DNA from: a virus
Taxonomy: Duplodnaviria; Caudoviricetes
DNA: 64,000 nucleotides
Virus record (IMG/VR): IMGVR_UViG_3300046522_000316
Span: 96,001 to 160,000 of that record
Strand: one strand, 5' to 3'
This document shows positions 4,821 to 41,329 of this stretch, in pieces. The position numbers were made by a program, and so were the translations under genes. Below the pieces are notes generated by a model. That model ran no database searches, had not been told where the DNA came from, and saw only the letters and a list, made by a program, of their open reading frames with translations. Position 1 is the first letter of the stretch. Each line of letters begins with the position of its first letter.

Positions 4821-5299
4821 ACACCGATTTCAACCCGGCTTCGAATTTGTACGATGAACTACGCCGGGTTTTGGGGATTGCAGCCGATCAAGAAATTCCG
4901 TTCGCTGCAATCCGTGAACGTTTCGCGAAAAAGAACGTGCCTGAATTGCCGGTGGCCTATATCGCACTGGCACTTCAAACGTATCCGAGCATGTATCAAG
5001 ACGGGATGATTTCGCCGGGCCAAGCGGACGCGATGTTTGCGCAAGGCTCTGCGATTTCGAATTACATCGACAACGTTCTGTCACAGGAACATCCGATGGA
5101 TAAACGTTTCCTGTTGCGCTACATGGAACAGGTCTGCATGCAGCTGGGCAACACCCGGCAAACAAGCGTCGGGTTCGGCCACGTAATCGTTTATAATCGC
5201 GAACCGTTTGTTGGTGAAGGATTCGAAACGTTCGACAATTCCCTGTACGTTCCGCCGCTGACCGGGTACTGGGCAATCGTCAAGCGAAAGGAAAACTAA
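4817..5299 (+). CDS. Hypothetical protein
   Basis: ATGA overlap with upstream stop. Confidence 0.7.
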   Translation: MNTDFNPASNLYDELRRVLGIAADQEIPFAAIRERFAKKNVPELPVAYIALALQTYPSMYQDGMISPGQADAMFAQGSAISNYIDNVLSQEHPMDKRFLLRYMEQVCMQLGNTRQTSVGFGHVIVYNREPFVGEGFETFDNSLYVPPLTGYWAIVKRKEN

Positions 5300-5345
5300 A
5301 CTGTAAATATATGGCAGGACAACGAATAATTGACTGCCATATTCC

Positions 5346-5615
5346 GTGAGGTGTGCGGTGAATACATACAGCTTGCGTCGATTGCTGGTTCAAGTAGAAC
5401 TCGCCATGGAAATGGGAAAAGCTTACGGCGAATCCGAAGAGGTAATCGCGGATAAAATGCGACACGCCGCGAAGTGTTCCATTGTGAACGGCCATATCCC
5501 ACGCGAAACGTTTGCTTATGCAGAAATGTTTATGCAGGCCAGTGACCCGGCTGCGTGTTTGCGTGGTGCCCGCCGATTGTTTAATCCGAATCCGTTTTAC
5601 GCGGGCCTCGTATGA
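5346..5615 (+). CDS. Hypothetical protein (start may be GTG 5358)
   Basis: ORF after motif at 5298; GAGGTG before 5358. Confidence 0.6.
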   Translation: MRCAVNTYSLRRLLVQVELAMEMGKAYGESEEVIADKMRHAAKCSIVNGHIPRETFAYAEMFMQASDPAACLRGARRLFNPNPFYAGLV

Positions 5616-6022
5616 AAATCATTCTGGCGACGGTTAATCGAGTTCGTAAAGGGGAAACCTTTTTGGAATCGGTGAACATGGAAGGCCCCGGCGCACAGCC
5701 TTTGTTGATCCAGCTGTTTCAGGATCGCGGCCACATGCTGATCACACACCACAAAGGGAAAACTGTTTTTCATAATTCAGAACTACTCGACGTTATGCCC
5801 GAGGTTGCCGACCGCGTACCGAAAGGGAAAGCCGCTGTCGGTTCTGTCGGAACGCACACGTTTGTTGTGGTGCCTTACGCAAAAGAACGGTTGGTTACTG
5901 CGTTAATTCGCAGCGCCCGCGCCTTCCGTATGGTGCGCAAGCCTGTACGGATAATCGACAACGTTGGCGACTTGCTGAATACACACGCGGAATTGCCAAG
6001 CGATCCCCGCTTCAAGGATTAA
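5612..6022 (+). CDS. Hypothetical protein
   Basis: ATGA-coupled 136 aa ORF. Confidence 0.65.
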   Translation: MKIILATVNRVRKGETFLESVNMEGPGAQPLLIQLFQDRGHMLITHHKGKTVFHNSELLDVMPEVADRVPKGKAAVGSVGTHTFVVVPYAKERLVTALIRSARAFRMVRKPVRIIDNVGDLLNTHAELPSDPRFKD

Positions 6023-6024
6023 CC

Positions 6025-6861
6025 ATGACTCTTTTATCAGTGGATGGCACGAACACAATGCACCGGGCGTATCACGCTATTCGCCCGTTGAGTTACCGGG
6101 GATTTCCCACGCACGTGATTAGCGGGTATTTTTCGATCCTGCGTTCCAATCTGAAAATCACGGGTGCGAAATTCTGCCTGAACTCGTTTGACCGCCCCGG
6201 TAGAAATTTCCGGCATGAATTGCTGGATAACTACAAAGGCGACCGTCCAAAAGACGAAGAGAAAAGTAAATCCATTGCAAAACAGTTGCCGGTGATTGTG
6301 GAACTGCTGGACGCGATGGGGTTTGCGATATTCGGGCGCGTCGGCGTAGAAGCTGACGACGTGATTGGTTCGACTGCTGCGAATTACACGGGCGGTCTGG
6401 CCTATATCCTTTCCAGCGACAAAGATTTCGCGCAGGAATTGATTCACAAACACGTTCGCCTGATCAATCCGAACAAACAGATGACCATTAGCCGTAAAAA
6501 CTGTAAAGAAATATACGGGGTTGAAGCAAAACGAATGATCGACTTCCTAATGCTGGATGGGGATAAGGTCGATTGCATTCCGGGTATTCCCGGCGTTGGC
6601 GGCAAAACCGCAATCAAGCTGATTGAGGAATTCGGAAAGGCGGAAAACATTCCCCATGACCGGTTTCCAAAGAAGGCGCGAGAAACTGTAAATACAAAGA
6701 AGATTCTGAAACTCAATCGACAGCTTGTAACCATACGGCACGACCTGTACGATGCGAATAAGGAATTGGATTTATCAATTTCTAAAGTGAACGTGAAAGC
6801 ATTCACGCGCATTTGCGATAAATATGGATTGGACTCGTTGAAAAAGTCCGTCCTGAAGTAA
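6025..6861 (+). CDS. 5'-3' exonuclease / flap endonuclease (Pol I N-terminal, T5 FEN-like)
   Basis: LLSVDG, FDRPG..FRH...YKGDR, EADDVIG, SSDKDF, GDKVDCIPGIPGVGGKTA helix-3-turn-helix. Confidence 0.92.
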   Translation: MTLLSVDGTNTMHRAYHAIRPLSYRGFPTHVISGYFSILRSNLKITGAKFCLNSFDRPGRNFRHELLDNYKGDRPKDEEKSKSIAKQLPVIVELLDAMGFAIFGRVGVEADDVIGSTAANYTGGLAYILSSDKDFAQELIHKHVRLINPNKQMTISRKNCKEIYGVEAKRMIDFLMLDGDKVDCIPGIPGVGGKTAIKLIEEFGKAENIPHDRFPKKARETVNTKKILKLNRQLVTIRHDLYDANKELDLSISKVNVKAFTRICDKYGLDSLKKSVLK

Positions 6862-6931
6862 ACGCGGGAACCATACCTGCAAACCACCCGGCAATAACGC
6901 CGACCATGCTGGAAAGTAAAGAGAGAAAATC

Positions 6932-7513: not shown

Positions 7514-7549
7514 GCCTTAGATCCGTAGCGGGTCTGTAGCAAAACCGAA

Positions 7550-7577
7550 AGCGGCCTAGAAATAGGTCGCTTTTTTT
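7550..7577 (+). terminator. Rho-independent terminator
   Basis: AGCGGCCTA-gaaa-TAGGTCGCT then T7. Confidence 0.85.
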
Positions 7578-7596
7578 ATTTCTGCGGGAGAAAAAC

Positions 7597-8397: not shown

Positions 8398-8422
8398 CCC
8401 TATGAAGGCCCTTTGATACCTT
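8394..8422 (+). promoter_or_regulatory. Host sigma70-type promoter with extended -10
   Basis: TTGACC-N17-TACCTT, TG at extended -10 position; near copy on minus strand at 63127-63156. Confidence 0.6.
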
Positions 8423-8614
8423 AAAGGCCTTCCGTAACGTTTTGTGCCTGATGCATTAGCGCTCACGGAATAAGGGAAGTTTGTAGTTGCTGCCTTATAT
8501 AGGCATGCGCCACCGCCTGTTCTGCGATGTGCGTTTGCCGTTGGTAGTTCGCCGCCCTCGGCAAAAAATGCACAGTCGATAAACGACACTAACGAAATTT
8601 GGAAAGTTGGAGAT

Positions 8615-10598: not shown

Positions 10599-11735
10599 AT
10601 GAACGAATTTTTCAGCCGCTTGGTAGGATCTGCACACGTTGCAATCGCTGCCTTTTATCAGAGCCTGTTTTCGCAAGCTCTCAGTACCTCCGCCGATGAA
10701 TTGGCAGACTGGTACAAACTCGATCCGACCGAAGTCGATCTGGAAGACGGCGCAGAAATTTACGCCAAACGTATTTCGCTGCCGATTTGGGATTTGGTGA
10801 ATCCTGATCATGCGGCGGAAATTGCCAGTGACATGATGCTGGAACTCGAAGCCAAGCACGATATGCATTTGTGCAGTTACACCGGCGACGGCGAATTCAT
10901 CGTTTACATCACCAACGAAGAAATCGAACTCGACGCTTTGCGTTTGGCTTTCGACGACCTCGAAGAACTGGAAGAGGAAGAGGAAGAACTCGAAGAACTC
11001 GACGGTTCCGAACTTCAGCAACAACCGGAAAGCGGTCGCGTTCTTTCCATGGTTCCGCGCATCGACCAATCGGCCCCGGCCCATGCTGCGCCAGCCGTTG
11101 AAATCGAAGCGGATTTCCCCGAGGAAGATTTCCCCGAGGAACCGTTGATCGAAGAACCGGCCCCGGTCGCCGCTGTAGCCGCGCCAGCCGAGATTGCAGA
11201 CGCCGATCTGGTAGAGGAAGAACCTTTGCCCGAGGAAACGCCTGTAAACGAAGCACAGGCCGTTGCAGCGCCAACCGAAACCAACGCGCAAGCCGAAGCA
11301 CTGGCGAACGCATTGAATGGCGAACCAGCACAGGCCGTTGAACAGCCCGCGCCAGCACCAGCAGAAACCGAAGCCTCGGCACCGGTTGCAGAAGCCGCAC
11401 CAATCGACGACGTTGTTGATACCGGCCCGGTAAAAGAATCGCCGGAAATCATCGCGGCAATTCACGCGGAAAAAATGCAGCAACTGATGGGCATGTTGCC
11501 GTCTGACACCATGTCTGAAGTTGATGACAATACCGGCGTGCTGTCCCTGATGTACAGTCGTGACGTGAACGGCGAAAATGTGGATTACATCCGCAACATT
11601 CGCCTTGTAAATGAAAACTTCCAAAACATTCGTTATGTGGACGTTTTCTATGTCGAAGACGAAGCGGGTAAAGTGCTGCACCGCACGTCGAGCGTACAGA
11701 GCATTATCCAGCACTTGGATCATCTGAACGCGTAA
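10599..11735 (+). CDS. Acidic Glu/Ala/Pro-rich protein with long disordered centre
   Basis: GAGGT RBS; EEEEEE and EAPA-rich stretch between folded-looking termini. Confidence 0.8.
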   Translation: MNEFFSRLVGSAHVAIAAFYQSLFSQALSTSADELADWYKLDPTEVDLEDGAEIYAKRISLPIWDLVNPDHAAEIASDMMLELEAKHDMHLCSYTGDGEFIVYITNEEIELDALRLAFDDLEELEEEEEELEELDGSELQQQPESGRVLSMVPRIDQSAPAHAAPAVEIEADFPEEDFPEEPLIEEPAPVAAVAAPAEIADADLVEEEPLPEETPVNEAQAVAAPTETNAQAEALANALNGEPAQAVEQPAPAPAETEASAPVAEAAPIDDVVDTGPVKESPEIIAAIHAEKMQQLMGMLPSDTMSEVDDNTGVLSLMYSRDVNGENVDYIRNIRLVNENFQNIRYVDVFYVEDEAGKVLHRTSSVQSIIQHLDHLNA

Positions 11736-11756
11736 CGCGAAACTGTAAATCAGAAT

Positions 11757-11787
11757 GGAAGGGCTACCCTGTGGCCCTTCCTTTTTT
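11757..11787 (+). terminator. Rho-independent terminator
   Basis: GGAAGGGCTAC-cct-GTGGCCCTTCC then T6. Confidence 0.8.
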
Positions 11788-12280: not shown

Positions 12281-12583
12281 ATGGAACTGGCAGAATTTGT
12301 TTCGCACGTTTTGCAATTTGCAGAACATGACGAAATTGCAATTACGAACCATCCCCTTGATATGCATCCTTTCGAGGCTGCTATCGCCCTCAACAGCGCG
12401 TTGGCCCTTGTGCCCGATGGTGAAGCCGTAAAAGTTTTCGGCACCACTGGCGACACACTTATTATCGTGCGCGTGTCGGCCATTCCTGAATATCGTGAAG
12501 CCATTGAATTCGGTTGCGATAAACGACACGCTGAAGAAATCAAACAAATTTGCGAGCGCCCGAACAATGCAGCTACTGACTAG
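12281..12583 (+). CDS. Hypothetical protein
   Basis: GAGGGA RBS then ATG 12281. Confidence 0.65.
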   Translation: MELAEFVSHVLQFAEHDEIAITNHPLDMHPFEAAIALNSALALVPDGEAVKVFGTTGDTLIIVRVSAIPEYREAIEFGCDKRHAEEIKQICERPNNAATD

Positions 12584-13853
12584 CACTCTCCATCACCTGT
12601 ACGAAAAAGGAATTCTCAAAACGTGCGAACCAACGCATGATTTCGAGTCGTATTCGTATGAGTACATGGGCCGACTGGTTAAGCAGCCCGTTACGGTTGG
12701 TACGCGTATGAAAAAATCAGACCTGTTGAATATCGTGCGCAGTGCGTGCGATGGAAACCTCGAAGACATGGCAACCGTCGCCATGCTTTACAACGTAGGC
12801 TTTGGCCTGCCGTTTGATCGTGAACGCGCCGTAGCGTGGATGCAATATTCGTTGGTGAATCCATCGAGCCAGTTCGACGCCGAATGTGAGTACGCGATTA
12901 AATGCGCAGAGGAAGCGCCGGACGTTTCCTATCCGGACTCGCTGATTTATCCGTGTCTGGATATCGTGCGCAAAATTCACGATCATAAAAACACTGGCAC
13001 CATTCGCAAAGGCTGTTCGGTTCTGCCGCGCTTTAAAGGCGTGCGCGTGTATTTGATTTATCGCACGCAGCCCGGCGTAACGCCGCATCTGTACGCAGGC
13101 TTTTATCATGACAAGGAGAATTATTTCCTTGCGCTGGATAAACTGGTTGCGTTGGGTGCGCCGCGCTATTTCGGTGAACTCCGGGGCCGCGTAACGATTC
13201 CGGAATACACGCCGTTCGGCCACAATGCGATGTATGTAATTGCTGGCACCGTTTACATTCCCGAATCGAAACGGAATGGCGACAAGATCAGCAAAGTGTT
13301 CAAAGAATTCCTGACGGATGAAACGCCGCAGCTGACACCGCAACACTTCAGCGTTGACGACACTGTTGCCATGCTGGAAGAGGCGCAGAAAACTGTAAAT
13401 ACTATTACACGGTCACAGAGCCGATTGGCGGAACAAGGTAAGGCCATTCCTTTGGAGTCGCTGCAACAATTGCAGAAGGCAAACAAACGAGTAGAACAGC
13501 TTACGGCACAGGTAAAGAACGCCAACCCGGAAGCCGAGTATCAGGCCTATCTCAAATCGCGCCCTGAAGCCCGTCTGCGCTTCGTTGCGACTGAAATGTA
13601 CCGCTGGAACCGGGACGGACTTAAAACCGTTCCAATGGGACGCCAGCAGCACCAGCAAATGCAATCGTTAGGGTTTCACAGCCTCACGCATCCAGCCCTC
13701 GAATTCGTTGGTCATGTCGCAGACACAACCGACGTGCGTGAAACTGTAAATAAATTCGAGAAGGCTATGGACGCAAAGGTATCTGCCTTAATCATTCAAC
13801 CCGGCCCCGAATCGACGGTTCGGTTTGTAGACGTTACGAGGATTGATCTGTGA
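12567..13853 (+). CDS. Sel1-like repeat plus degenerate NAD-ligase adenylation-like domain
   Basis: AMLYNVGFGLPFDRERAVAW (Sel1-like); LPRFKGVRVYLIY, IAGTVYIP, LRFVA, QSLGF parallel LigA motifs but KxDG is RFKG. Confidence 0.45.
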   Translation: MQLLTSTLHHLYEKGILKTCEPTHDFESYSYEYMGRLVKQPVTVGTRMKKSDLLNIVRSACDGNLEDMATVAMLYNVGFGLPFDRERAVAWMQYSLVNPSSQFDAECEYAIKCAEEAPDVSYPDSLIYPCLDIVRKIHDHKNTGTIRKGCSVLPRFKGVRVYLIYRTQPGVTPHLYAGFYHDKENYFLALDKLVALGAPRYFGELRGRVTIPEYTPFGHNAMYVIAGTVYIPESKRNGDKISKVFKEFLTDETPQLTPQHFSVDDTVAMLEEAQKTVNTITRSQSRLAEQGKAIPLESLQQLQKANKRVEQLTAQVKNANPEAEYQAYLKSRPEARLRFVATEMYRWNRDGLKTVPMGRQQHQQMQSLGFHSLTHPALEFVGHVADTTDVRETVNKFEKAMDAKVSALIIQPGPESTVRFVDVTRIDL

Positions 13854-14788
13854 GCAATGACATTTCGTACAACGAAGCACATGAGCAACAATTGAAATCG
13901 AGCGAGCGCCAATTGGGCACCGCTACCGAACCGGAAAACGTTACACGTTACAAAGAAAATATTCCGGTTAAAGTTGCCGGTGAATTCCCGGTGCGAATTG
14001 TGCCGCGTGTTGAAGTGGTATTCGGCGCCGTGCTGAATACTGTAAATGAAGTAATAGAACAGCACAAAACGCTGACGCCTTTGATCGGCCACGACAACGG
14101 CGTAGTGGAAGAGGAAGACAATTCGGTTTCCCTCTACAGTCCGCTTTCGCGCAAATACAACGGCGCAGCATTGCAGCCGCTGGAATCGCTTTACGAATTC
14201 CTTGCAGCCCTTGAGCTTGAGCAATATTTGATTGTCTGCGAAGACTCGGTATTGCAGCAGCGCATTCAAGGTCTGATCGACACCCTGCATTCGCAATTGC
14301 AGGATACGTTCGGTGGCCCGGCCTTCGAACAACACGGCCTCGATTTTTCCGTGGCCCGCAGTGATTATTTCTCTACCAGCGTCACGCAGTACACGGTGGA
14401 AGAGAAAACTGTAAATAATATTCATCTGGTGATTCGTGTGTACATTCACGCGGCCAGCTTGACGAATACCCCTGACGATCCTGTCGAAGCTATTAACAGC
14501 GCATTCGGTGCGCCTTACCGGCAAGTGATCAAAAACTTCGCGACTGCAACCAAGATCAAAACGCAGATTGCAGTTGCATTTGATGTTTCTAATTTCACTG
14601 TACGGCCTAACCTTCTGACTCTGTTCACCGCGCTTTGCGCAGAACCGGGCGCACAAGCGGACGCTGTAAACAAAGACGATCATATCGACGCAAACGTAAT
14701 TGTTTCCGTCGCGCTGACAAACCCAAACGCCAAGGTGAAGACTGCCCCGAAAAAGGGTGTGGCACCGGCAAAACGCAAAGGTAGTTAA
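13850..14788 (+). CDS. Hypothetical protein
   Basis: 312 aa ORF coupled to upstream stop. Confidence 0.75.
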   Translation: MSNDISYNEAHEQQLKSSERQLGTATEPENVTRYKENIPVKVAGEFPVRIVPRVEVVFGAVLNTVNEVIEQHKTLTPLIGHDNGVVEEEDNSVSLYSPLSRKYNGAALQPLESLYEFLAALELEQYLIVCEDSVLQQRIQGLIDTLHSQLQDTFGGPAFEQHGLDFSVARSDYFSTSVTQYTVEEKTVNNIHLVIRVYIHAASLTNTPDDPVEAINSAFGAPYRQVIKNFATATKIKTQIAVAFDVSNFTVRPNLLTLFTALCAEPGAQADAVNKDDHIDANVIVSVALTNPNAKVKTAPKKGVAPAKRKGS

Positions 14789-15351: not shown

Positions 15352-15494
15352 CTAACACCCGGTACATGGGCGACCTCGACTGAGCGCGCCCGTGACCACC
15401 TCGCAGTAAACTGTAAATACACTGTACAAGATGTGCAGTGCAGAAAACTGTAAATCTCTTTCAGCAACATCAATCAATATATCTGGAGTTATTC

Positions 15495-20988: not shown

Positions 20989-21153
20989 ATGTTCCGAAAT
21001 AAACAACGTGGCTACATCGACTTCAGTGGTATCGGTACATTTCTGATTTGCGTGGGCGTCGTCGGTGGCATTTTGATCGGCGGCATTATTTTCAAAGTCA
21101 TTCCGTGGCTGTGGGATCTTTCGAAACCGTGGCTGCACCAAATCACAGGGTGA
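20989..21153 (+). CDS. 54 aa membrane peptide with prepilin-like leader (below ORF-track cutoff)
   Basis: AAGGAGG RBS; MFRNKQRGYIDFSGIGTFLICVGVVGGILIGGIIFKVIPWLWDLSKPWLHQITG. Confidence 0.7.
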   Translation: MFRNKQRGYIDFSGIGTFLICVGVVGGILIGGIIFKVIPWLWDLSKPWLHQITG

Positions 21154-21158
21154 AGACT

Positions 21159-21668
21159 ATGCAACATCGCAGTATTACCGATGAAGACTTGCGCGACTTT
21201 CTGGAAGACGAAAACATCACCGACATTTCTTTCGTGGCGCAGGGCCAAGTCCCGTACCACAACGGTGTGCAGCTTTTCGAAAAAGAATACGTCGGTCAAG
21301 GCCCTGACGTAGATTCCGCAATTGAAGGCGCCATGGCTACGTTCAGTGCTGAATATCGCGGCGAACGCGTCTACACTCGCGGCGTTCAGTTGTCCTCTAC
21401 TGACTCCGGCATTCTCGCTGTGTTCGTCGCGGCGATTCGTCCGGCTCCGAAAAACTTCAGCCAAATCCTCAACGATTTGAAGAAAGGCGCACAAGCCCGC
21501 CGCGCTGGCTGGAACGGTGCAGGCCAGTGTGTTTATCTGGAACGCTTCGCAGATTTCGACGTGAGTTTCGAACCGTGTTTCGTTCTGCATAACGCGCAAG
21601 GCAAATTGCAACCGGGTTGGATTCCGTCCATGGGTGATCTGCTGGCCGAAGACTGGGAAATCGCGTAA
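21159..21668 (+). CDS. N-terminal unknown domain fused to DUF2829 (Tad2-like) domain
   Basis: FSQILNDLKKGAQARRAGWNG...GWIPSMGDLLAEDWEI. Confidence 0.75.
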   Translation: MQHRSITDEDLRDFLEDENITDISFVAQGQVPYHNGVQLFEKEYVGQGPDVDSAIEGAMATFSAEYRGERVYTRGVQLSSTDSGILAVFVAAIRPAPKNFSQILNDLKKGAQARRAGWNGAGQCVYLERFADFDVSFEPCFVLHNAQGKLQPGWIPSMGDLLAEDWEIA

Positions 21669-21921: not shown

Positions 21922-22935
21922 ATGTCTGCTGATAAAAATATGACCGGCGAACAAATTCAGCAGATTATGGATATGTTTCTGTACAAGGCACTCGAACCAC
22001 TTGTCCTGTACACGAATATTTTCGATCCGCAAGTTGAGTATCTGTTGCTGCTGGTAGCGACCAACCGTAAACGCAAGCTGAGTTCGTTGGATCGTGGTGA
22101 AGCCGTGGAAAAGCTCGCGGCCTATCTCAGTGTTCAGGATCGCAAGCAGAAATTCGAGTTCATTCGTGCGGCTCGCGTGGAAAGATTTTTCATCCACAAG
22201 TTTCTGATTTCGTTCACTGAACAAAACATGGGCTACGTGAAACGCTACAAGGAATTCTTGCTGAATCCTACCAAGGAAAAGAAGATTGCCCTTGACCGTG
22301 ACGCGGTGCTGATCGGGATGTGTGAGCGCTCGGCACTCTACAACACCCTGCAAATTTGCAACGCGTACCTGAAACGTTTTTACGTGTACCGAAATTCTGT
22401 CGTTGACCTGTACGTGAAGAACGCCAACAAGTGGGCGAAGGCTCACGTGATCGGTGCGCAAGGCCGGTCGAGTTTCAAAGACCTTGTGCAGTCGATTATC
22501 AAGGCTGTAATCACGGCGATGGATAAATACGACAGTCGAAAAGGTGCCTTAACTTCCTACGTCACGTTCTGGACAAAAAACGCGATGAAGGCGAGTAAAG
22601 AACACGAATATGGCGTGGCTTACACTGTGCCGCAAGCGCAGAAGAAAAAGCTTTTCGAGGGGACTAGCCACCACGTCAATTTCAGTGTGAGCCTCGACAC
22701 GATTTACGGCGACGATGACGACGAAGGTTCAAGCATGGCCCTGCATTCTGTTCTGGCGCCGGGCCACACGCTGGAAAAAGGAATCGAAGTCGAACAAAGT
22801 CGCTCGCTTGTGCAGATGCTTGCGAAAAAAGTAGATCCGATGGGCATCGCTCGGTTGAGTCTGGATATTGGCGAGCATTTTACGCCAGAAGAACAGGCAA
22901 TTATGCGCCAGCACATGCTCGAAGAAAAACTGTAA
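21922..22935 (+). CDS. Phage sigma factor (sigma70 regions 2-3, no recognisable region 4)
   Basis: FKDLVQ...AMDKYDSRKGALTSYVTFWTKNAM matches regions 2.2-2.4; VSLDTIYGDDDD matches region 3.2. Confidence 0.8.
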   Translation: MSADKNMTGEQIQQIMDMFLYKALEPLVLYTNIFDPQVEYLLLLVATNRKRKLSSLDRGEAVEKLAAYLSVQDRKQKFEFIRAARVERFFIHKFLISFTEQNMGYVKRYKEFLLNPTKEKKIALDRDAVLIGMCERSALYNTLQICNAYLKRFYVYRNSVVDLYVKNANKWAKAHVIGAQGRSSFKDLVQSIIKAVITAMDKYDSRKGALTSYVTFWTKNAMKASKEHEYGVAYTVPQAQKKKLFEGTSHHVNFSVSLDTIYGDDDDEGSSMALHSVLAPGHTLEKGIEVEQSRSLVQMLAKKVDPMGIARLSLDIGEHFTPEEQAIMRQHMLEEKL

Positions 22936-22944
22936 ATAAACTGA

Positions 22945-23151: not shown

Positions 23152-23778
23152 ATGAGCAATTTGCTTGCACACGCTGACCGTGAATTCGCAATCACCATGC
23201 GGAACATGCGGGCCAATCCGGAAAACGACGAAAGCGATTTGACGATGCAGGAACACATGCATCAAAACGTGCGTGAAATTCTGGAAGTAGTTTCCCGTCA
23301 GGGGCACACCGGTTTCAGCATCAATTTTCTGTTCCAGATGGTTCAGAAAGTTGGAATGTTTGAACCGCTTTCTCCGATCCTCGGCACCGACGACGAATGG
23401 GTTGACGTTGCCAATATCAGCGGCGGGCAACCGATGTTGCAGAACGCTCGCTGTGGTCACATTTTCCGTGATGGTGATTCAGGGGCTTACGATTCCACCG
23501 GTCGCATTGTCGTTTGTGAAGACGGCCAGACCGTGACGAATTATCAGAGCCGGGTTTACATCGAATTTCCGTATGTGCCGACTCGGGTTTACGCCCCGCA
23601 TGGTGAAGACCTAGAACGTTTCACCCGCGCCGGTATTGTGGTTGGTGACGACTACAAAACTGCCGACGAAGTTCGCGAACTTTACAAGGTTCTGAAACGC
23701 ACGGAAGAATTGCGCGAAGCTGGGCAAGCATTTGTTGCAGAAGTAGCGGCAACCGGCCTACCCAACGTAGACGAATAA
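23152..23778 (+). CDS. Hypothetical phage protein
   Basis: AAGGGA RBS; 208 aa. Confidence 0.75.
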   Translation: MSNLLAHADREFAITMRNMRANPENDESDLTMQEHMHQNVREILEVVSRQGHTGFSINFLFQMVQKVGMFEPLSPILGTDDEWVDVANISGGQPMLQNARCGHIFRDGDSGAYDSTGRIVVCEDGQTVTNYQSRVYIEFPYVPTRVYAPHGEDLERFTRAGIVVGDDYKTADEVRELYKVLKRTEELREAGQAFVAEVAATGLPNVDE

Positions 23779-23846
23779 AACTGTAAATAATACTCAGGAG
23801 AGAAAAGCTTTCCGGGTATTCGACTTGAATCTAGAGGAACAACCGC

Positions 23847-28258: not shown

Positions 28259-28341
28259 AAAGCAGTAGGAGCGAATGGTAATTTTATATTACCGGGGCAG
28301 CATTTAGGCCCTTGCTACGTCTATAATCGGGGATTTACATA

Positions 28342-29592
28342 GTGGCTCATTCTAAATTTGACGACCTGATCAAAGCGCTCAATGCCTTTGAATCCGGTAT
28401 GGCAGAAAATACGCTCACGCGTAAAAGCGACATTATCAAACGGCTTGATGAAATTTCTAACCAAGCCACTATCCTGTTGAATCAGGGTAGCCTCCCAACG
28501 GGTAGCAAATCGACGCTTCTGAAGATCCGGAAACTGGTCAAAGAAACCGCCGAAGGTTTGCGCACCGACGTGTTCAGTTCCTTGGGGCCGATCCGTCGTA
28601 TTTCTCGCGATCATTTGGGCACGCTTCACTCTGCATTGACTTTGCAGCTTGGCGGCGGTCTGACTGCTGAAGAGAAAACGCAAATCCGCGAAAGCTACGC
28701 CTCCGACGAAGACACCGCCAGCGAAGTCGAACGCCTCATTGAAGCATTCGATCCCGGCTCGTTGACCATCGGCGGCACGAAAGTCGATCTGCAATTGGCG
28801 CTGAATCATGTTCGCCAATTTCTGGATCAGAATTTCACGCTCTCGCAATTGCGCTCGATCCAGCCTTACAAATCCGGCGAATTGACTCCGGGCGGAAAGC
28901 CAGTCAAAAATCCTGACTCTGTTTGGAATGACCTCACGTACAGCGAAGTGCTGGCCGCGTCCGAGGAAACCCCAAAAGGCAAAACCCGTCTGGCCGCTCT
29001 CAAGCGCGAACTGGTCAAAAAACACGATGATGATTTGGCGACTCTTTCCGAGTCCTACAAAGAATTGTCGCGTCGTATGCCGCGAACCCTGAAACATCCC
29101 TTTGCCCCAATCTATTATCCTGTTGTTCCGATTTTCCAAGACATTGGCGTTTACAAAAATCCAACCCGTTTGGAAAACGCTGGCCTCAAGGTGACTCGCA
29201 TTGGCGACCACTTTATCGTTCTGGAAAACCAACTGCTGCTGTGCATTGATCTTGATCGCATCGGCATTAAAGACGGCATTCGTTTGACCAAAGACGGCCA
29301 GCGGATGAAAACTGTAAATAATAACAGTGCGTTGGAAACCGAAGTACACAAGATCGTTGGTCACATCAACGAAACGGCTCGCCACTCCGGCACTTCGTTT
29401 GCTGTTGCATCCGATACCATTGTGCGCAATCCGAACAACCCGCGAATCGCTCTCGTCTGGTTGATTGAAGAAAAAGTTCGTAAGAAACTTGCCAACACGT
29501 TGACCAACACAAAAGTTCAGTGGGATATTCCGCGCCATCAAATGGAACCCACGCGCCTTAGCAAACGCCCTGCGCCAGCACGGACGAAGTGA
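28342..29592 (+). CDS. Hypothetical protein
   Basis: 416 aa ORF. Confidence 0.75.
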   Translation: MAHSKFDDLIKALNAFESGMAENTLTRKSDIIKRLDEISNQATILLNQGSLPTGSKSTLLKIRKLVKETAEGLRTDVFSSLGPIRRISRDHLGTLHSALTLQLGGGLTAEEKTQIRESYASDEDTASEVERLIEAFDPGSLTIGGTKVDLQLALNHVRQFLDQNFTLSQLRSIQPYKSGELTPGGKPVKNPDSVWNDLTYSEVLAASEETPKGKTRLAALKRELVKKHDDDLATLSESYKELSRRMPRTLKHPFAPIYYPVVPIFQDIGVYKNPTRLENAGLKVTRIGDHFIVLENQLLLCIDLDRIGIKDGIRLTKDGQRMKTVNNNSALETEVHKIVGHINETARHSGTSFAVASDTIVRNPNNPRIALVWLIEEKVRKKLANTLTNTKVQWDIPRHQMEPTRLSKRPAPARTK

Positions 29593-30098
29593 CAGAAAAG
29601 TACAATGAGGGAGACTGCACGATTTGCGAAAAGTATCAGTCGCTTTTGCACTGGCACCACACAATTCCGCAATCGCTTGGCGGTAAAAACAGCCTGCAAA
29701 TCCCTCTTTGCGCTCAGTGTCATAACCTTCTGCATGCACATGCGTTGGCTATTTACGCTAGAACTAAAACAGGCCGAGCAATCCAGAAAAAATACTGGGC
29801 GACTCCGGCCATGGAACACAATGCAGGCCAGTGGTTAAAAATACTGGTAGAGGCAATTTTGTCTGACGAAGCTGTTGTGGGTAAACAGTACGTCATGCAA
29901 TTCAAAGCGTCCCCTGCGTTGCACACAGCACTGCAACTGTTCAAATCGGACAGCAACGTATCGTCGCTAGAGAAAGCGATGATATTAGCAATTAGTGATC
30001 ATTTAAGAAATAGGGGCTACTTGGATAATGAGCGTTCAATCAGGGATCAAAGCACGGGTAACAAAGGCACTCCGCGAAGTAAGCCCAACCTGTGGTGA
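29589..30098 (+). CDS. HNH endonuclease with possible C-terminal DNA-binding domain
   Basis: CTIC...HHTIPQSLGG...LCAQCHNLLH. Confidence 0.8.
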   Translation: MTEKYNEGDCTICEKYQSLLHWHHTIPQSLGGKNSLQIPLCAQCHNLLHAHALAIYARTKTGRAIQKKYWATPAMEHNAGQWLKILVEAILSDEAVVGKQYVMQFKASPALHTALQLFKSDSNVSSLEKAMILAISDHLRNRGYLDNERSIRDQSTGNKGTPRSKPNLW

Positions 30099-30993
30099 TT
30101 GCAGCGGCCTACAAGACGACGTACTGGTCGAAGGAAATACGGTTCCATGTGGGGTGGTTCCGAAGGGTAATCTGACCAAGAAAAGTGCGACGGAAAAAGG
30201 TAATGTTTCGGCTAAAGAGTCCGCAAAAAACCGCGAACCAAAAACCGAAGCGTCTAGTATTTGTCCAAAGTTTTCGCCAAACACTCGCCCTGTCGGGGCG
30301 CTAGGCGATAACAAAATTGCTGAACTGGCTGACCTGATCGGCAGCATTGACGCTAAGGCCCTGCGTGCCCTTGGCGTCCTGATGTTTAACGAGCCTGCGA
30401 CACGTGATCAAGGCATGACCTTTATGCAGAAGGTTTATGTTCGTTATCGCGGCGCAGCAAATCGCAATTACATTTCCAATTTCATGCAAGCGTATGTCAT
30501 GTACGCGACTTCACAACAATACAAACTCATGAGCGCCGATGGCCGCTGCGTCCTGACCTACGGGCCGCATTGCCGTCCGGTAATTCACACCGAAGCCGAA
30601 TTTAAACCCATGCATGACAGCATGATGGCGAAAGGTGCATTGCTCGACCCTGATGCAACTACTTTGATTTCCCGGCGCTGGCGCCACGAAGAGGAATTCA
30701 ATCTCGGCATTTCCGACCTTGGCGATAAAATGGCTAAAGACGGAATCGGTGTTTCGACGATTGACGATGTGTTTACCTCAAGTGGTGTTCGGAAAGGTCG
30801 CAAAAAAGGTTTGCCGGATCTTATCAGTCTGGTGGCCGACGCGGCAGCTGGTTACGACGTGGACGGTCAAGCCGCCAACTTTGTGGAACGCGATGTTAAG
30901 CGTGACAAAGGCGACGACGGTGATGATGACGCGCCGAAAAAGAAACGTGGTTCCGGGGTTAAAGTTCGTAACGTTCGTGGGGGTGCAGAATAA
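30028..30993 (+). CDS. Hypothetical protein with Cys-containing N-terminus
   Basis: CGDC...CG...CPKF. Confidence 0.7.
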   Translation: MSVQSGIKARVTKALREVSPTCGDCSGLQDDVLVEGNTVPCGVVPKGNLTKKSATEKGNVSAKESAKNREPKTEASSICPKFSPNTRPVGALGDNKIAELADLIGSIDAKALRALGVLMFNEPATRDQGMTFMQKVYVRYRGAANRNYISNFMQAYVMYATSQQYKLMSADGRCVLTYGPHCRPVIHTEAEFKPMHDSMMAKGALLDPDATTLISRRWRHEEEFNLGISDLGDKMAKDGIGVSTIDDVFTSSGVRKGRKKGLPDLISLVADAAAGYDVDGQAANFVERDVKRDKGDDGDDDAPKKKRGSGVKVRNVRGGAE

Positions 30994-32099
30994 TGCTGGG
31001 TAAATACATCACTCAAATCGGAATTGATCCTCAGTCCCATGATGGGCAACGTTTGGTCGAGGAATGTATTCTCTGTTTGTCCGGCGTAAATTCTGCTTTC
31101 GATTTCCAGCGCAACGTCAAAACCATCGACCTGACCCCTACAGGTATGAGCGGAAAAGATGTGCGACTCGGCCTCATGGAAAAAAGCTATCTCACGGTCA
31201 ACGTGAAGTATGCAGCTTTGTTCCTCGCGCTTGTCCCAAACAATGCAGACGCCTACAACAAGCTCCAAGCGTATTTGAACGCGGAAGACATTGCGATTTT
31301 CCGTCATTACTTTACGCGCCGTTCGTTCAAGGCCAACGTTAAGGCCTACGCCACTGCGCGTGGCCTGTGTGCCCGTGACGTTTCGATTGTGGCAATGCGC
31401 CGGGACAAAAAGGCGTTCGATGAACTGTTGGAAAAAGCGACCCGTCACATTAAATCCCGTGTGCGGAAAAAACTTAGTTTTGTGGTGAAATCTGACAACG
31501 GCACCAACAACGATTTCAACGGCGACCTGACTTGCAAAGTCCTGCGCGCTTACCACTCGCTGATCCCGACAAAGCAGCCTGAAGCCTACATCGTCAATTA
31601 CCTGCGCCGTTCCGCGTCCAACGAGACGACGAACCTGTGCAAGAAGCACACGACCGGCAAGCGGGGCCGTATGGTGGCAACCGGTGACGACGGCTACGGC
31701 GGTCAGAACTATGAGGTTGTTTGCCGTTCGGAAAACCAGACTCACAAAGGCGCAGATGGCGAATCTGAATTCGACATGCTGATGGGTACTCAGATTGAGG
31801 ACTCGACGCCAACAATTGAATCGTCGATTTTAATGAGCCGTTTGTTCGGCAAGTTCAAAGGTCGCAAACTCAAAGTGTTGGAAATTTTGAGTGGGCACAT
31901 CGACGAAGGTTTCACGCGGTTCCTGAAACGCAACAATAAACTTGGCCGGGGCATCGACCATACCGACTACCAACGTCGTGTTCCGCACCAGACCTTTCTG
32001 AATACACTCGCTGAATATGTCGGCGTTTACCGGGAAGCGTTCATGCGTTTTGTGCAATACATCGGTGGTGTACTGACTGCACATAAGGAGTTTGCTTAA
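30993..32099 (+). CDS. Probable second, ECF-like sigma factor
   Basis: FDELL...DLTCKVLRAY...YIVNYLRRSASNETTN (region 2-like); LAEYVGVYREAF (HTH-like). Confidence 0.5.
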   Translation: MLGKYITQIGIDPQSHDGQRLVEECILCLSGVNSAFDFQRNVKTIDLTPTGMSGKDVRLGLMEKSYLTVNVKYAALFLALVPNNADAYNKLQAYLNAEDIAIFRHYFTRRSFKANVKAYATARGLCARDVSIVAMRRDKKAFDELLEKATRHIKSRVRKKLSFVVKSDNGTNNDFNGDLTCKVLRAYHSLIPTKQPEAYIVNYLRRSASNETTNLCKKHTTGKRGRMVATGDDGYGGQNYEVVCRSENQTHKGADGESEFDMLMGTQIEDSTPTIESSILMSRLFGKFKGRKLKVLEILSGHIDEGFTRFLKRNNKLGRGIDHTDYQRRVPHQTFLNTLAEYVGVYREAFMRFVQYIGGVLTAHKEFA

Positions 32100-32452: not shown

Positions 32453-32462
32453 TAGGTAAACT

Positions 32463-37607: not shown

Positions 37608-37609
37608 AT

Positions 37610-38716: not shown

Positions 38717-38723
38717 GAAGAAA

Positions 38724-39362
38724 ATGCCAATCCTAGCCGATGCACTGGTTGAGCCAATCAAAGAAGACGAAGGCCGTTATTTGCAGATGATTGCAGACGG
38801 CGACCTTGAAGAGTCCGAGCCATTTGGTTTTATGGGAATCGGATACAAACTTTACGTGGGCACTGATCGTTACGTTCCGGGCCTGTCGAACTGTCGGTTG
38901 GTCGTCCTGTTCAAAGGCGAAGATTGTGTTTATTCCTGCTATTTCAAAATGGCGGAAAACCAATACTTCGGAAATCGCGTGGTGCAGGTTGAGGTTCGGC
39001 AGTCTCCATCGTTGCCGGGCCTTGCGCGTTCCATGATGCGCAATTATTTCCTGCGTTTTTATGATTCGATTCGCACGGATCTTTCAAGCACACCGCAAGG
39101 CCGCAATATGTGGCAGCAGTTCTACACGGATTATCGGAAAGCCGGTGACGTGTATTTTTATCAAGGGTTGGTAAATATCGACCTGCGCAAATCGGACGGG
39201 TCGAATAATCAAGATGCATCCTGTCCAGAGGTGGTAACTCACTTGCGCGCCATGCGCAACGCCTGCACCGTACTGCGTGAAGGGATGTGGCACGACAATA
39301 AAGAGGGTAACGTTATTGTTATCTACGCATCCAACAAACCTCTATGGACAAAAGATCAATGA
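38724..39362 (+). CDS. Hypothetical protein, possibly GNAT-like fold
   Basis: VQVEVRQ...GLARSMM...STPQGRNMW. Confidence 0.5.
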   Translation: MPILADALVEPIKEDEGRYLQMIADGDLEESEPFGFMGIGYKLYVGTDRYVPGLSNCRLVVLFKGEDCVYSCYFKMAENQYFGNRVVQVEVRQSPSLPGLARSMMRNYFLRFYDSIRTDLSSTPQGRNMWQQFYTDYRKAGDVYFYQGLVNIDLRKSDGSNNQDASCPEVVTHLRAMRNACTVLREGMWHDNKEGNVIVIYASNKPLWTKDQ

Positions 39363-41299
39363 AACTACGAAAAACGAACCGGGTTCCAATCGGTCAAGCG
39401 CCAGCTAATCGCGCCCCGCAAGCGATGGGTACTGCAAAGCAGTATTACCCGAAAACCAATCAGCAAAAGATTGACGATTATCTGGCAACGGCAGGCAGCG
39501 GCGGCAACGCGCAAATGTCTCAGATGCCGATTGAAATCGACATTGATCCGATGCTGAAAGATATCGTGTTTTCCGAAGACCTTGAACAGAAAAAACTGGT
39601 CATGCGGATTTACACGGACATGTATTACAACGATTCCATCGGCGGTTCCATTGTCGATATCAAATCGCAGCTGATGTTCTCCGACTTCACCATTTCCGGA
39701 ATCATGGATCGCCGGGTGATGGATGATTTCATGGAAAACGTTGATCGTCTGGATATCCGCAACCTGATGCCCGACGTGGCAATCGACTACAACGTAAAAG
39801 GCGGTTTCATCGGATCGCTTTTGTACAACGAAAAATCGCAAGTGTTCTCGCGGATCATGCCGCACGCGTATGAAAACACAAAGATCGACATGCTGCCTTT
39901 CCACGGCACCGATCCGCTGATCACTGTAGCGTTTCCCGAATACATCCGGGCGACCATGGCTTCCGATAGTCCGCGTGTAAAAGCACTGCGTGAATTCCTC
40001 GGCGCCGACGTGATGAAACAGCTTTCGAACGAAGCGTTAGAACTCGACCAGAAATCCACCGTTTACGTTCCGCGCCGTTCCGGTTCCAGTTCAACGGGCA
40101 CCAGTTATTACCGTCGAATCATGCCGTGGTATTTGCTGGAGAAAAACCTTTTCCGTGGCACGTTGGTACGAAGTGCAATGCGTCAAAAGGGTATTCTGCA
40201 CGTAACGCTCGACGGCGCTGGCGAATGGGAACCAACACTGGCCGACATGCAGGCCGTGATGGATATGTTCATGAACGCCGATGCTGACCCGGTAGGCGCC
40301 GTGGTTGCAACGCGTGGCGGTATTTCCACTGAGGAAATTCGTGACCCACAAGGCGGTTGGACAATCTTCGATAACAAAGATGCAATCGACTCGATTAAAA
40401 TGAAAGCACTCGGTATTTCCGATGCATTCCTTTCGGGTGACGCGACTTATGCGAACGGCGATACTTCGACCTCTTTCTTTATCGACGCAATTCGTACCGA
40501 ACGTGATTGGCTGACCCGCAAGACTTTGTACAGCCGCATTTTCCCGATGATTTCCGCGTTGAAAGGCTACACGCTGAACCGCGACGGGAAATTGATTACT
40601 CGCGGTAACAGCCTCGACAAACTCGATCCAATGGGCAGTTTCGAACGACTCAACGACGGCACCCGTTTGTTGATTCCGACGATCCATTGGGAAAAGACTT
40701 TGCAGCCTGAAGGCGATCAGCAATACATGGATATGCTGCAAGCCATGTCGGATAAAGGCGTACCGGTTCCACTGCGCGTTATGGCGGCAGCTGGTGGCCT
40801 GAACCTTGACCGTTTGTTGGCCGGTCAGGATTCCGATTTGTTGGCGCAAGAATCGCTTTATCAATACCAAAAGAAAATCAAAGATTTGAAAAAGAAATAC
40901 GGTATTGATGACGCTGGCGATATGGGCGGCGGTGGCATGGGCGGTGGCGGTTTCGCTTCTACTGCATCCAGCTACGATCAGCAATTGATGCACATGGCCC
41001 GCACTAATCCCGGTTTGTTCGAAGCATTCCGCGCACAGGCACAATCCATTTATAACCAGAACCTCGACAATACGCATTCCGATGTATTGGCCCGCAACAA
41101 TGGTCAAATCGTTGGTTTGGCGAATCGCGAATTCGGTGAAATGGGCGATGCTTACGGCTATTCGCATGACGGCAAAAAGAAACATTTGACCAATCAAAAG
41201 TTGGCGAAAGAACGTCAGAACGAAAAGATCGTTAAATTCCTTCGGGATCGTGATGCTCGTACCGGCGTCGGTGCAAAGCGTTCGCGCACTCGTTTGTAA
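39359..41299 (+). CDS. Portal protein
   Basis: Follows terminase; KALGISDAFLSGDATYAN...FF...R..L pattern typical of portals. Confidence 0.65.
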   Translation: MKLRKTNRVPIGQAPANRAPQAMGTAKQYYPKTNQQKIDDYLATAGSGGNAQMSQMPIEIDIDPMLKDIVFSEDLEQKKLVMRIYTDMYYNDSIGGSIVDIKSQLMFSDFTISGIMDRRVMDDFMENVDRLDIRNLMPDVAIDYNVKGGFIGSLLYNEKSQVFSRIMPHAYENTKIDMLPFHGTDPLITVAFPEYIRATMASDSPRVKALREFLGADVMKQLSNEALELDQKSTVYVPRRSGSSSTGTSYYRRIMPWYLLEKNLFRGTLVRSAMRQKGILHVTLDGAGEWEPTLADMQAVMDMFMNADADPVGAVVATRGGISTEEIRDPQGGWTIFDNKDAIDSIKMKALGISDAFLSGDATYANGDTSTSFFIDAIRTERDWLTRKTLYSRIFPMISALKGYTLNRDGKLITRGNSLDKLDPMGSFERLNDGTRLLIPTIHWEKTLQPEGDQQYMDMLQAMSDKGVPVPLRVMAAAGGLNLDRLLAGQDSDLLAQESLYQYQKKIKDLKKKYGIDDAGDMGGGGMGGGGFASTASSYDQQLMHMARTNPGLFEAFRAQAQSIYNQNLDNTHSDVLARNNGQIVGLANREFGEMGDAYGYSHDGKKKHLTNQKLAKERQNEKIVKFLRDRDARTGVGAKRSRTRL

Positions 41300-41317
41300 T
41301 TTATTCATAGCAGCCAA

Positions 41318-41329
41318 AAACTGTAAATA
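41318..41329 (+). promoter_or_regulatory. AAACTGTAAATA candidate phage promoter (this copy precedes the candidate RNA)
   Basis: Exact copies start at 5298, 6683, 13390, 13741, 14406, 15408, 22927, 23778, 29309, 41318; ...AAATC variants at 11740, 15445; all on +. Confidence 0.7.

What the first reader, a model, noticed from the sequence alone, without database searches (positions are those of the whole stretch)
5298..41329. Strand-specific 12-mer AAACTGTAAATA: candidate promoter of a phage sigma lacking region 4
Seen: 10 exact copies (5298, 6683, 13390, 13741, 14406, 15408, 22927, 23778, 29309, 41318) plus two AAACTGTAAATC (11740, 15445), all on the coding strand; chance expectation under equal base use is about 64000/4^12 = 0.004. 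Several sit right after stop codons; the five intragenic copies all read (E/K)TVN using GTA and AAT codons that look less favoured here; one copy contains the stop of the sigma gene. Known: T4 gp55 lacks region 4 and reads the single box TATAAATA. Inference: cognate promoter of the 21922 sigma. Caveat: the 11740 copy lies just before a terminator hairpin, so a non-promoter binding role is possible.
Basis: partly seen in the sequence, partly recalled or inferred. Interest (0 to 1): 0.75.

Follow-up and report, generated by a model that had tools for sequence, protein, structure and literature searches.

The report
Private promoter box of a jumbo phage
The repeated 12-letter word is real and is most likely the private promoter that a giant Pseudomonas-type phage places in front of its DNA-replication genes; the same box was already marked as a putative promoter in the related phage Lu11, so it is a solid but largely ordinary finding.

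Summary
There are 10 exact and 3 one-mismatch copies of AAACTGTAAATA, all on the + strand, against 0.21 expected.

The window is a Lu11/HRDY3/PaBG-type jumbo phage. In the window plus four relatives, all 109 copies point the way of the local gene. About 60% lie in the ~9% of DNA that is non-coding. Most end 16-70 nt before a start codon, and an A is favoured 7 nt downstream. Intragenic copies are kept at the DNA level while the proteins around them diverge.

The box precedes genes for SSB, DNA polymerase, clamp loader, primase and thymidylate synthase. The GenBank record of Lu11 already labels these sites 'putative middle/late promoter'.

The sigma at 21922 has regions 1.2 to 2.4 and no detectable region 3 or 4. 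Its link to this box is plausible but unproven. A second box, GTAATTTA(A), precedes tail-sheath genes, and a weak second sigma candidate lies at 30993. Other first readers of this scan noted both motifs elsewhere in the same genome.

Verdict: new member of a known kind.

The parts
5298..5309 (+). class A box, exact; overlaps the TAA stop of gene 4787-5299; 36 nt before ORF 5346
   Evidence: orthologous site in HRDY3 at 151552
6498..6509 (+). one-mismatch copy (AAAGA), intragenic, other reading phase; probably not functional
   Evidence: kept in HRDY3, absent in Lu11
6683..6694 (+). class A box, exact, inside gene 6025-6861 (HRDY3 ortholog is annotated 5'-3' exonuclease); reads ETVN
   Evidence: DNA motif kept in HRDY3 and Lu11
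11740..11751 (+). variant box ending in C, 5 nt after the stop of 10599-11735 and 5 nt before a terminator hairpin
11757..11781 (+). intrinsic-terminator-like hairpin (11 pairs) followed by a T run
13390..13401 (+). class A box, exact, inside gene 12495-13853; reads KTVN
   Evidence: the box core ACTGTAAA(T/C) is kept in HRDY3 (ACTGTAAACT) and in full in Lu11, although the flanking protein is only 40-44% identical
13741..13752 (+). class A box, exact, inside gene 12495-13853, about 98 nt before the start of gene 13850
14406..14417 (+). class A box, exact, inside gene 13850-14788; reads KTVN
15408..15419 (+). class A box, exact, intergenic; first of a tandem pair before the gene that starts near 15505
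   Evidence: the same tandem pair is annotated as promoters in Lu11
15445..15456 (+). variant box ending in C; second of the tandem pair
21922..22935 (+). sigma 1, 337 aa. Residues 4-229 resemble sigma-70 regions 1.2, the non-conserved region and 2.1-2.4. A disordered linker follows, then a conserved 3-helix C-terminal module (about 284-334)
   Evidence: C-terminal module
22927..22938 (+). class A box, exact; encodes K-L-stop of sigma 1; lies before the small ORF 22945 and the Tad3-like gene
   Evidence: a box at the same gene end in another frame in PaBG, and just after the stop in AD1
23778..23789 (+). class A box, exact; overlaps the stop of 23152-23778; 57 nt before the SSB gene 23847-25097
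   Evidence: a box before SSB also in Lu11, HRDY3, PaBG, AD1 and Peetri
29309..29320 (+). class A box, exact, inside gene 28342-29592; upstream of the topoisomerase, sigma-2-candidate and helicase genes
   Evidence: kept in Lu11 although the flanking protein is 35% identical
41318..41329 (+). class A box, exact, 19 nt after the portal gene; 14 nt downstream of a class B box
   Evidence: same tandem in HRDY3
41296..41303 (+). class B box GTAATTTA (candidate late promoter)
30993..32099 (+). candidate second sigma-like protein (368 aa), ortholog of PaBG gene 112; weakly supported
   Evidence: negative; HHpred claim in PMC7412058

Best explanation
AAACTGTAAATA (with one more A in front in most copies) is the core of a phage-specific, single-block, -10-type promoter. 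It spans about -18 to -7, and transcription most likely starts at the A found 7 nt (sometimes 6) downstream. It heads the transcription units for DNA replication, recombination and nucleotide metabolism of a Lu11-like jumbo phage. These phages carry no detectable RNA polymerase of their own, so host core RNA polymerase must read the box after being redirected by a phage factor. The most likely factor is the sigma at 21922-22935. It keeps the promoter-melting region 2 but has no detectable regions 3 and 4, which fits a promoter without a -35 element. Shown here: the motif, its strict orientation, its enrichment between genes, its fixed distance to start codons, its conservation across the clade at orthologous sites, and DNA-level selection on intragenic copies. 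Inferred: that it is a start signal, where the start lies, and which factor reads it.
For: Excess: 13 copies against 0.21 expected. In the window, HRDY3, Lu11, PaBG and AD1 together, 109 of 109 copies (up to one mismatch) face the same way as the local gene, and about 60% lie in the ~9% of DNA that is non-coding. The reversed-word control gives 0-3 hits per genome. The motif end lies mostly 16-70 nt before the next start codon. No other conserved block occurs within 30 nt on either side, but A at +7 occurs in 70% of intergenic and 60% of intragenic sites, preceded by G and T. Sites are orthologous in HRDY3. A box sits before SSB in Lu11, HRDY3, PaBG, AD1 and the distant Peetri, whose sigma is 27% identical. 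At the sigma gene's end the box is kept in different reading frames. Intragenic copies are kept where the flanking protein is 35-45% identical and use rare codons. The core CTGTAAAT/TGTAAAYA is among the most enriched intergenic 8-mers in each of the five sequences. Downstream genes are DNA polymerase A, clamp loader, primase, thymidylate synthase, an Mre11-like phosphoesterase and SSB. The motif is asymmetric. Lu11's annotators independently labelled these sites 'putative middle/late promoter'. No RNA polymerase beta-type gene (PF00562, controls positive) was found in four relatives; PMC7824862 also reports that group 2 jumbo phages, where it places Lu11 and PaBG, have sigma factors but no RNAP. 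Sigma 1 aligns to sigma-70 residues 111-447 with Z 12-15 and keeps the Y..WW melting motif. It lies in a block of small genes with a Tad2-like anti-defence gene, which is typical of early genes. Sigma 1 and the box co-occur down to 27% sigma identity.
Against: No transcript 5' end was observed; no usable RNA run exists. The pairing with sigma 1 rests on co-occurrence and architecture only. The clade has a second private box before the sheath genes and a possible second sigma that occurs in nearly the same set of phage records (81 against 85), so the pairs could be swapped. By analogy with T4, a region-2-only sigma would be expected to serve late genes, not replication genes. The sigma 1 gene lies 6.5 kb downstream of the tandem class A boxes at 15408/15445 with two hairpins between and no recognisable sigma-70 promoter, so how it is first expressed is unexplained. 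The 11740 copy would fire straight into a terminator.
Confidence: 0.55

Rival explanations
1. The box is a promoter, but sigma 1 does not read it. It would be read by the 30993 protein or by host sigma-70 holoenzyme remodelled by phage factors (as T4 middle promoters are through AsiA and MotA). Sigma 1, like T4 gp55, would serve the late box GTAATTTA(A).
For: There are two box classes with different regulons: replication genes against sheath and virion genes. T4's region-2-only sigma is the late one (established knowledge; T4 late consensus TATAAATA cited in PMC5587285). Sigma 1 and the 30993 family occur in nearly the same set of phage records. Both genes lie downstream of class A boxes.
Against: The 30993 protein is only weakly sigma-like. 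It has no Pfam or PDB profile match, and hhalign to sigma 1 gives about 1% probability, although over the right segment. With an A at -7, TAAATA matches TATAAT at only 3 of 6 positions and lacks the critical T at -7, so it is a poor sigma-70 element (sequence). The 30993 gene sits in a replication-gene operon behind a class A box, the place expected for a late factor in an SPO1-like cascade. Sigma 1 sits among early-type small genes.
Confidence: 0.3
2. The word acts in RNA, not DNA: an endonuclease processing site, a stability element or the operator of a translational repressor, carried on the mRNA of the coding strand.
For: Strict co-orientation with genes and a position between genes fit an RNA signal as well as a promoter. 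The 11740 copy lies in what would be a 3' untranslated region just before a terminator.
Against: The distance to the start codon varies from 16 to 70 nt, and the box does not overlap ribosome-binding sites. An A is conserved at a fixed +7, as at a transcription start. Only 2 of 90 intergenic sites precede a terminator, and 7 follow one, the usual terminator-then-promoter order. Tandem copies occur before one gene. No conserved pairing partner lies around the word.
Confidence: 0.06
3. The word is a DNA site for something other than transcription initiation: a polar recombination hotspot (Chi-like), a replication or packaging signal, or the site of a DNA-binding regulator.
For: It is strand-polarised and over-represented, as Chi sites are. 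RecA-like and exonuclease genes lie in the same block.
Against: Chi-like words follow the replication direction and are spread through coding DNA. Here the orientation flips with each gene block, and the copies gather 16-70 nt before start codons. The sites stay at orthologous gene boundaries across genomes with different gene order. The asymmetric single block does not look like the site of a dimeric regulator.
Confidence: 0.04

Closest known systems
'Putative middle/late promoter' features in the GenBank record of Pseudomonas phage Lu11 (JQ768459; Adriaenssens et al., J Virol 2012, text not held here)
   Same: Same word (AAAACTGTAAATA within 16-nt features), same orientation rule and same places: a tandem pair before the ortholog of the 15505 gene, and sites before SSB, DNA polymerase I, the clamp loader and an endonuclease.
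   Different: This is a different phage (sigma 70% identical to Lu11's, 87% to HRDY3's). Lu11's features are predictions without mapped starts. Almost all annotated features lie between genes (one, 57718-57733, overlaps the end of a small CDS); copies deep inside genes, such as 17954 and 24281, are unmarked. No sigma is assigned, and the GTAATTTA box before the sheath genes is not marked.
T4 late promoters (TATAAATA) read by gp55 with gp33 and the gp45 clamp
   Same: A single AT-rich -10-type box without a -35 element. The octamer differs by one base (TGTAAATA). There are tens of copies per genome, some inside genes. The phage sigma has homology to region 2 only. Lu11 and PaBG are placed in the T4-like 'group 2.2' of jumbo phages, which encode sigma factors and a gp33 ortholog (PMC7824862).
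   Different: Four more conserved bases lie upstream (AAAC; AATC in AD1). The regulon is replication and nucleotide metabolism, not structural genes. Sheath genes carry another box. Sigma 1 is 337 aa and resembles sigma-70 residues 111-447, including the non-conserved region, rather than the 185-aa gp55 (size from memory). Dependence on a clamp or on gp33 was not tested.
Bacillus phage SPO1 sigma cascade (gp28 for middle genes, gp33/34 for late genes), from my own knowledge
   Same: Two phage-specific promoter classes with different regulons and possibly two phage sigma-like proteins. The candidate late factor is encoded in a middle-type operon.
   Different: SPO1 promoters are bipartite (-35 and -10), whereas here each class is one block. 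The second sigma here is unconfirmed.
Extended -10 promoters of sigma-70 (TGnTATAAT)
   Same: A TG just upstream of an AT-rich hexamer, with no need for a -35 element. A at -11 is kept.
   Different: The TG is one base closer. The hexamer TAAATA has A instead of the critical T at -7. The further upstream AAAC has no counterpart.

Membership tests
Lu11-type class A promoter motif | Sequence AAAACTGTAAATA or a close variant | tested here: met
   10 exact and 3 one-mismatch copies; identical core in the Lu11 features
Lu11-type class A promoter motif | Always points the way of the downstream gene and is enriched between genes | tested here: met
   109 of 109 co-oriented; about 60% lie in the ~9% non-coding DNA
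Lu11-type class A promoter motif | Occupies orthologous positions in relatives | tested here: met
   HRDY3 sites match the window sites one for one; a box lies before SSB in five relatives
Lu11-type class A promoter motif | Transcripts start just downstream | not testable with these tools
   No RNA run holds the phage; only indirect support from the A at +7
T4 late promoter / gp55 system | Box TATAAATA | tested here: not met
   The core is TGTAAATA and is extended upstream by AAAC
T4 late promoter / gp55 system | Drives late structural genes | tested here: not met
   Downstream genes are replication and nucleotide-metabolism genes; sheath genes carry GTAATTTA instead
T4 late promoter / gp55 system | Sigma belongs to the gp55 family | tested here: inconclusive
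   Pfam Sigma70_r2 only; PHROG 17569 'RNA polymerase sigma factor'; the best structural matches are sigma-70 domain 2 with its non-conserved region; gp55 itself was not compared
T4 late promoter / gp55 system | Needs a gp33-like co-activator and a sliding clamp | not tested
   Lu11 encodes a sliding clamp, and PMC7824862 reports gp33 orthologs in group 2 phages; neither was examined here
Sigma-70 family (for the 21922 protein) | Region 2 with the core-binding and melting motifs | tested here: met
   Pfam E 3.6e-6; PDB profile match to RpoD over 105-229; Z 15.4, rmsd 3.5 over 219 residues to sigma-70 domain 2
Sigma-70 family (for the 21922 protein) | Region 4 helix-turn-helix that reads a -35 element | tested here: inconclusive
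   No Pfam hit at E up to 10; the C-terminal profile finds no sigma in the PDB; Foldseek and VIA on the C-terminal model give no sigma-4 match, best Z 3.6. Absence of a match is not proof of absence
Sigma-70 family (for the 30993 protein) | Region 2 | tested here: inconclusive
   One of 19 close homologs hits Sigma70_r2 at E 6e-4; 17 of 100 Atlas neighbours are Sigma70_r2 clusters; hhalign places residues 166-212 on region 2 of sigma 1 at about 1% probability; none of 45 diverse members and no PDB chain match

The most novel reading that the evidence does not exclude
Lu11-like jumbo phages run a two-step private transcription cascade on host core RNA polymerase. An early-made sigma without regions 3 and 4 (21922) reads a 13-nt single-block box through region 2 plus its own conserved C-terminal module, and switches on the replication genes and a second, very divergent sigma (30993). 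That second sigma then reads GTAATTTA(A) before the virion genes. This would be a new architecture for promoter recognition: an upstream extension of the -10 element read without sigma-3.
Probability: 0.25. Interest if true: 0.6.

Novelty: new member of a known kind. Interest (0 to 1): 0.35.

Why it matters
For this widespread group of soil, plant and water jumbo phages, the box gives a ready map of the replication-gene transcription units. It also gives a compact orthogonal promoter part, and a clear biochemical question: how does a sigma with only regions 1.2 to 2.4 read 12-13 bases? Together with the second box it sets out a testable early, middle and late programme for phages that lack their own RNA polymerase. 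A 2026 review still describes that programme only as 'likely' sigma-driven (PMC13282480). The motif itself was already annotated in Lu11, so the gain is refinement rather than discovery.

Tried and rejected
1. No whole genome is held for the window, so genome-wide counts come from four relatives fetched in pieces.
2. RNA evidence: no listed holder is on record as RNA. Three runs labelled or guessed as RNA hold only contigs of 90-95% relatives and show no starts or ends, so they say nothing about expression.
3. The Lu11 genome paper is not held. The claim of prior annotation rests on the GenBank features alone.
4. Full-text search for the motif words returned only unrelated papers.
5. A naive longest-ORF gene caller was misled by very long antisense frames. 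It was replaced by a codon-usage model trained on the window.
6. Sigma-70-type promoter scan of 4.6-24.5 kb: 7 hits against 11 expected, none before the sigma operon.
7. T7-type RNA polymerase family search: no hit, but the controls did not ring either, so it is uninformative.
8. C-terminal module of sigma 1: the PDB profile, Foldseek and VIA-wide gave no meaningful match.
9. The 30993 protein: a PDB profile of close and of diverse homologs, Pfam on 45 diverse members and hhalign against sigma 1 gave nothing significant.
10. Looking for phages with only one of the two sigma-like genes, to split the pairing, failed. The two families are found in nearly the same phage records (85 and 81). The one sigma-1-only record examined (Alcaligenes phage Afa-NA1, 78 kb) starts inside its RecA gene and shows only a diverged box, AATCTGTTAATCA, before SSB.
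11. The 6498 copy is probably chance or decayed: it is in another phase and is not kept in Lu11.


Full report
OBSERVATION

A search for AAACTGTAAATA with up to one mismatch finds 13 sites, all on the + strand. Two end in C (11740, 15445), and a further one-mismatch copy lies at 6498. Dinucleotide-preserving shuffles expect 0.21, and none of 100 shuffles reaches 13. A shorter ACTGTAAAT lies at 14039. No copy lies beyond 41.4 kb or on the - strand.

- Stops overlap or abut the copies at 5298, 11740, 22927, 23778 and 41318.
- The five exact intragenic copies read (E/K)TVN in one phase.
- The codons used are minor ones. Seven of the twelve TVN tripeptides in the window are spelled ACT GTA AAT, where codon usage predicts about 1% each.
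- A strong hairpin with a T run follows the 11740 copy.

WHAT THE WINDOW IS

Nearly all genes are on the + strand until a strand switch near 62.8 kb. The genes include:
- a sigma factor (21922-22935), SSB and a RecA/UvsX-like protein;
- the large terminase, the portal and a baseplate hub.

The nearest record is Pseudomonas phage HRDY3 (313 kb, syntenic, sigma 87% identical). Next come Lu11 (70%), PaBG (51%) and the Erwinia/Dickeya Alexandra/Y3/AD1 group (38-39%). The DNA comes from rhizosphere and soil metagenomes.

THE MOTIF ELSEWHERE

HRDY3 has 36 copies (up to one mismatch) against 0 for the reversed word. They lie on whichever strand carries the genes, at places orthologous to the window's sites. 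I fetched the complete sequences of HRDY3, Lu11, PaBG and AD1 and called genes with a codon model trained on the window.

- All 109 copies in the five sequences face the same way as the local gene. About 60% lie between genes or at gene edges, while only about 9% of the DNA is non-coding.
- The distance from the end of the box to the next start codon is mostly 16-70 nt.
- Nothing else is conserved within 30 nt on either side. The exception is an A seven bases downstream (70% of intergenic sites, 60% of intragenic sites), often preceded by G and T. In the window, 7 of the 10 exact copies have A at +7 and the other 3 have A at +6 (sequence).
- This geometry places the word at about -18 to -7, with TAAATA in the -10 position and A at -11.
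- In a blind count of intergenic 8-mers, the core (CTGTAAAT, TGTAAATA, TGTAAACA) is at or near the top in every genome. The upstream part differs by lineage: AAAC in the Pseudomonas group, AATC in AD1.
- A box sits just before the SSB gene in Lu11, HRDY3, PaBG (AAAACTGTCAATA), AD1 (AAAACTGTAAACA) and the distant P. putida phage Peetri, whose sigma is only 27% identical.
- At the end of the sigma gene the box is read as K-L-stop here and as N-C-Q-stop in PaBG, and it follows the stop in AD1. So the DNA is conserved, not the protein.
- Intragenic copies are likewise kept in HRDY3 and Lu11 where the surrounding protein is only 35-45% identical.

WHICH GENES

In Lu11 and HRDY3 the box lies 29-70 nt before the following genes, besides SSB:
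- DNA polymerase A;
- the clamp-loader ATPase;
- a DnaG-type primase;
- thymidylate synthase;
- an Mre11-like phosphoesterase.

This is a replication and nucleotide-metabolism regulon, so middle-type rather than late.

PRIOR KNOWLEDGE

The GenBank record of Lu11 (2012) carries 16-nt 'regulatory/promoter' features noted as 'putative middle/late promoter'. Every one I read holds this word, and they coincide with my motif hits. The record marks sigma-70-like promoters separately. The accompanying paper is not held. I found no experimental mapping in this clade. A 2026 review says only that such sigma factors 'likely' direct host polymerase to phage promoters.

THE SIGMA

- Pfam finds only region 2, at residues 182-223.
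- A profile of 38 homologs matches RpoD over residues 105-229.
- The AlphaFold model (pLDDT 80) has residues 4-229 superposing on sigma-70 residues 111-447, which are region 1.2, the non-conserved region and regions 2.1-2.4. Z is 12-15.
- A poorly ordered linker follows (225-283), then a conserved three-helix module (284-334; invariant K302, D305, G308, R311, L312).
- Folded alone, that module (pLDDT 80) matches no sigma-4 or any other clear fold.

So 'no region 4' is consistent with all tests, though not proven. The protein is unlike the short T4 gp55. No RNA polymerase beta-type gene was found in four relatives. This agrees with the published grouping of Lu11 and PaBG among RNAP-less, sigma-encoding 'group 2.2' jumbo phages.

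THE COMPLICATION

The same k-mer count showed a second private box, GTAATTTA(A) (also CTAATTTA), always between genes and always co-oriented.

- In Lu11 it precedes both tail-sheath genes and a virion structural protein. Lu11's record does not mark it.
- The window has one exact copy at 41296, 14 nt before the class A copy at 41318. It has variants at 28278, 43477 and 57722.
- The gene at 30993-32099 is the ortholog of PaBG gene 112, which Evseev et al. suggested as a second sigma from HHpred (PMC7412058).
- My tests of that gene are weak. One of 19 close homologs hits Sigma70_r2. Language-model neighbours include Sigma70_r2 clusters. hhalign puts residues 166-212 on region 2 of sigma 1, but at about 1% probability. 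Pfam on 45 diverse members and PDB profiles find nothing.
- The two sigma-like families occur in nearly the same set of phage records (85 and 81), so presence and absence cannot split the pairs.

Sigma 1 sits in a block of small genes with a Tad2-like anti-defence gene, which looks early. The 30993 gene lies in a replication operon behind the class A box at 29309, where a late factor would be expected. This is inference only. How sigma 1 is first made is open: no sigma-70-type promoter was found before its operon, and two hairpins separate it from the class A pair at 15408/15445.

RIVALS

An RNA-level signal or a Chi-like DNA site would also be strand-polarised. Several results argue for a start signal instead:
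- the fixed +7 A;
- the distance to start codons;
- the tandem copies;
- the usual terminator-then-box order (7 sites against 2);
- the flipping of orientation with each gene block.

Both sites that are followed by a terminator (11740 here and one in AD1) end in C instead of A. They are probably decayed or special cases.

VERDICT

The promoter reading is well supported by comparison. The pairing with the 21922 sigma is plausible, at roughly even odds. The T4 late analogy is only partial. The motif class was already annotated in Lu11, so this is a new member of a known kind.

Other first readers of this scan noted both boxes and the possible second sigma in neighbouring windows of the same genome. 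I had found the second box independently before reading those notes.

Noticed in passing
window 41296-41303; variants at 28278-28285, 43477-43484, 57722-57729; Lu11 and HRDY3 copies listed: A second private box, GTAATTTA(A) or CTAATTTA, is always intergenic and co-oriented. It is often followed 4-6 nt later by (A/G)TA. In Lu11 it precedes both tail-sheath genes and a virion structural protein, yet the Lu11 record does not annotate it. It is a candidate late promoter. At 43477 it ends only 11 nt before the ATG at 43496 (12 nt if the following A is counted), which would give a nearly leaderless mRNA.
   Followed up: partly
window 30993-32099 (+): This 368-aa protein is the ortholog of PaBG gene 112 and belongs to a large family (470 representatives at E up to 0.001). 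It is possibly a very divergent second sigma, but the evidence is weak and mixed.
   Followed up: partly
window 21048-21668 and 23152-23778 (+): Tad2-like and Tad3-like (anti-Thoeris) genes flank the sigma gene (Pfam E 2e-19 and 2e-27). The annotated tables of HRDY3, Lu11, PaBG and AD1 show no gene of the Tad3-like size between sigma and SSB (homology was not tested). Here the gene is bracketed by two class A boxes (22927, 23778), as if inserted together with a duplicated promoter.
   Followed up: no
window 21922-22935, residues about 284-334: The C-terminal three-helix module of the sigma is conserved (invariant K302, D305, G308, R311, L312) and has no recognisable fold match. It may replace the sigma-3/4 functions or bind a partner.
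   Followed up: partly
window 404-4312 (-) and similar: Very long antisense open frames (up to 1302 codons) lie opposite real + strand genes. A codon-usage model rejects them, but they mislead longest-ORF gene calling.
   Followed up: partly
window 29589-30098 (+): A small ORF just after the class A copy at 29309 reads like an HNH nuclease (Cys pairs and a His-His, Asn, His pattern seen in the sequence). It was not searched.
   Followed up: no
window 62790-62850: Genes switch strand here. A hairpin with A and T runs on both sides sits between the convergent genes, like a two-way terminator.
   Followed up: no
L064 (Alcaligenes phage Afa-NA1) 3565-4740: An IS605-type transposase gene lies next to the sigma gene in this 78-kb record. 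The record starts inside its RecA gene and may be incomplete or rearranged.
   Followed up: no
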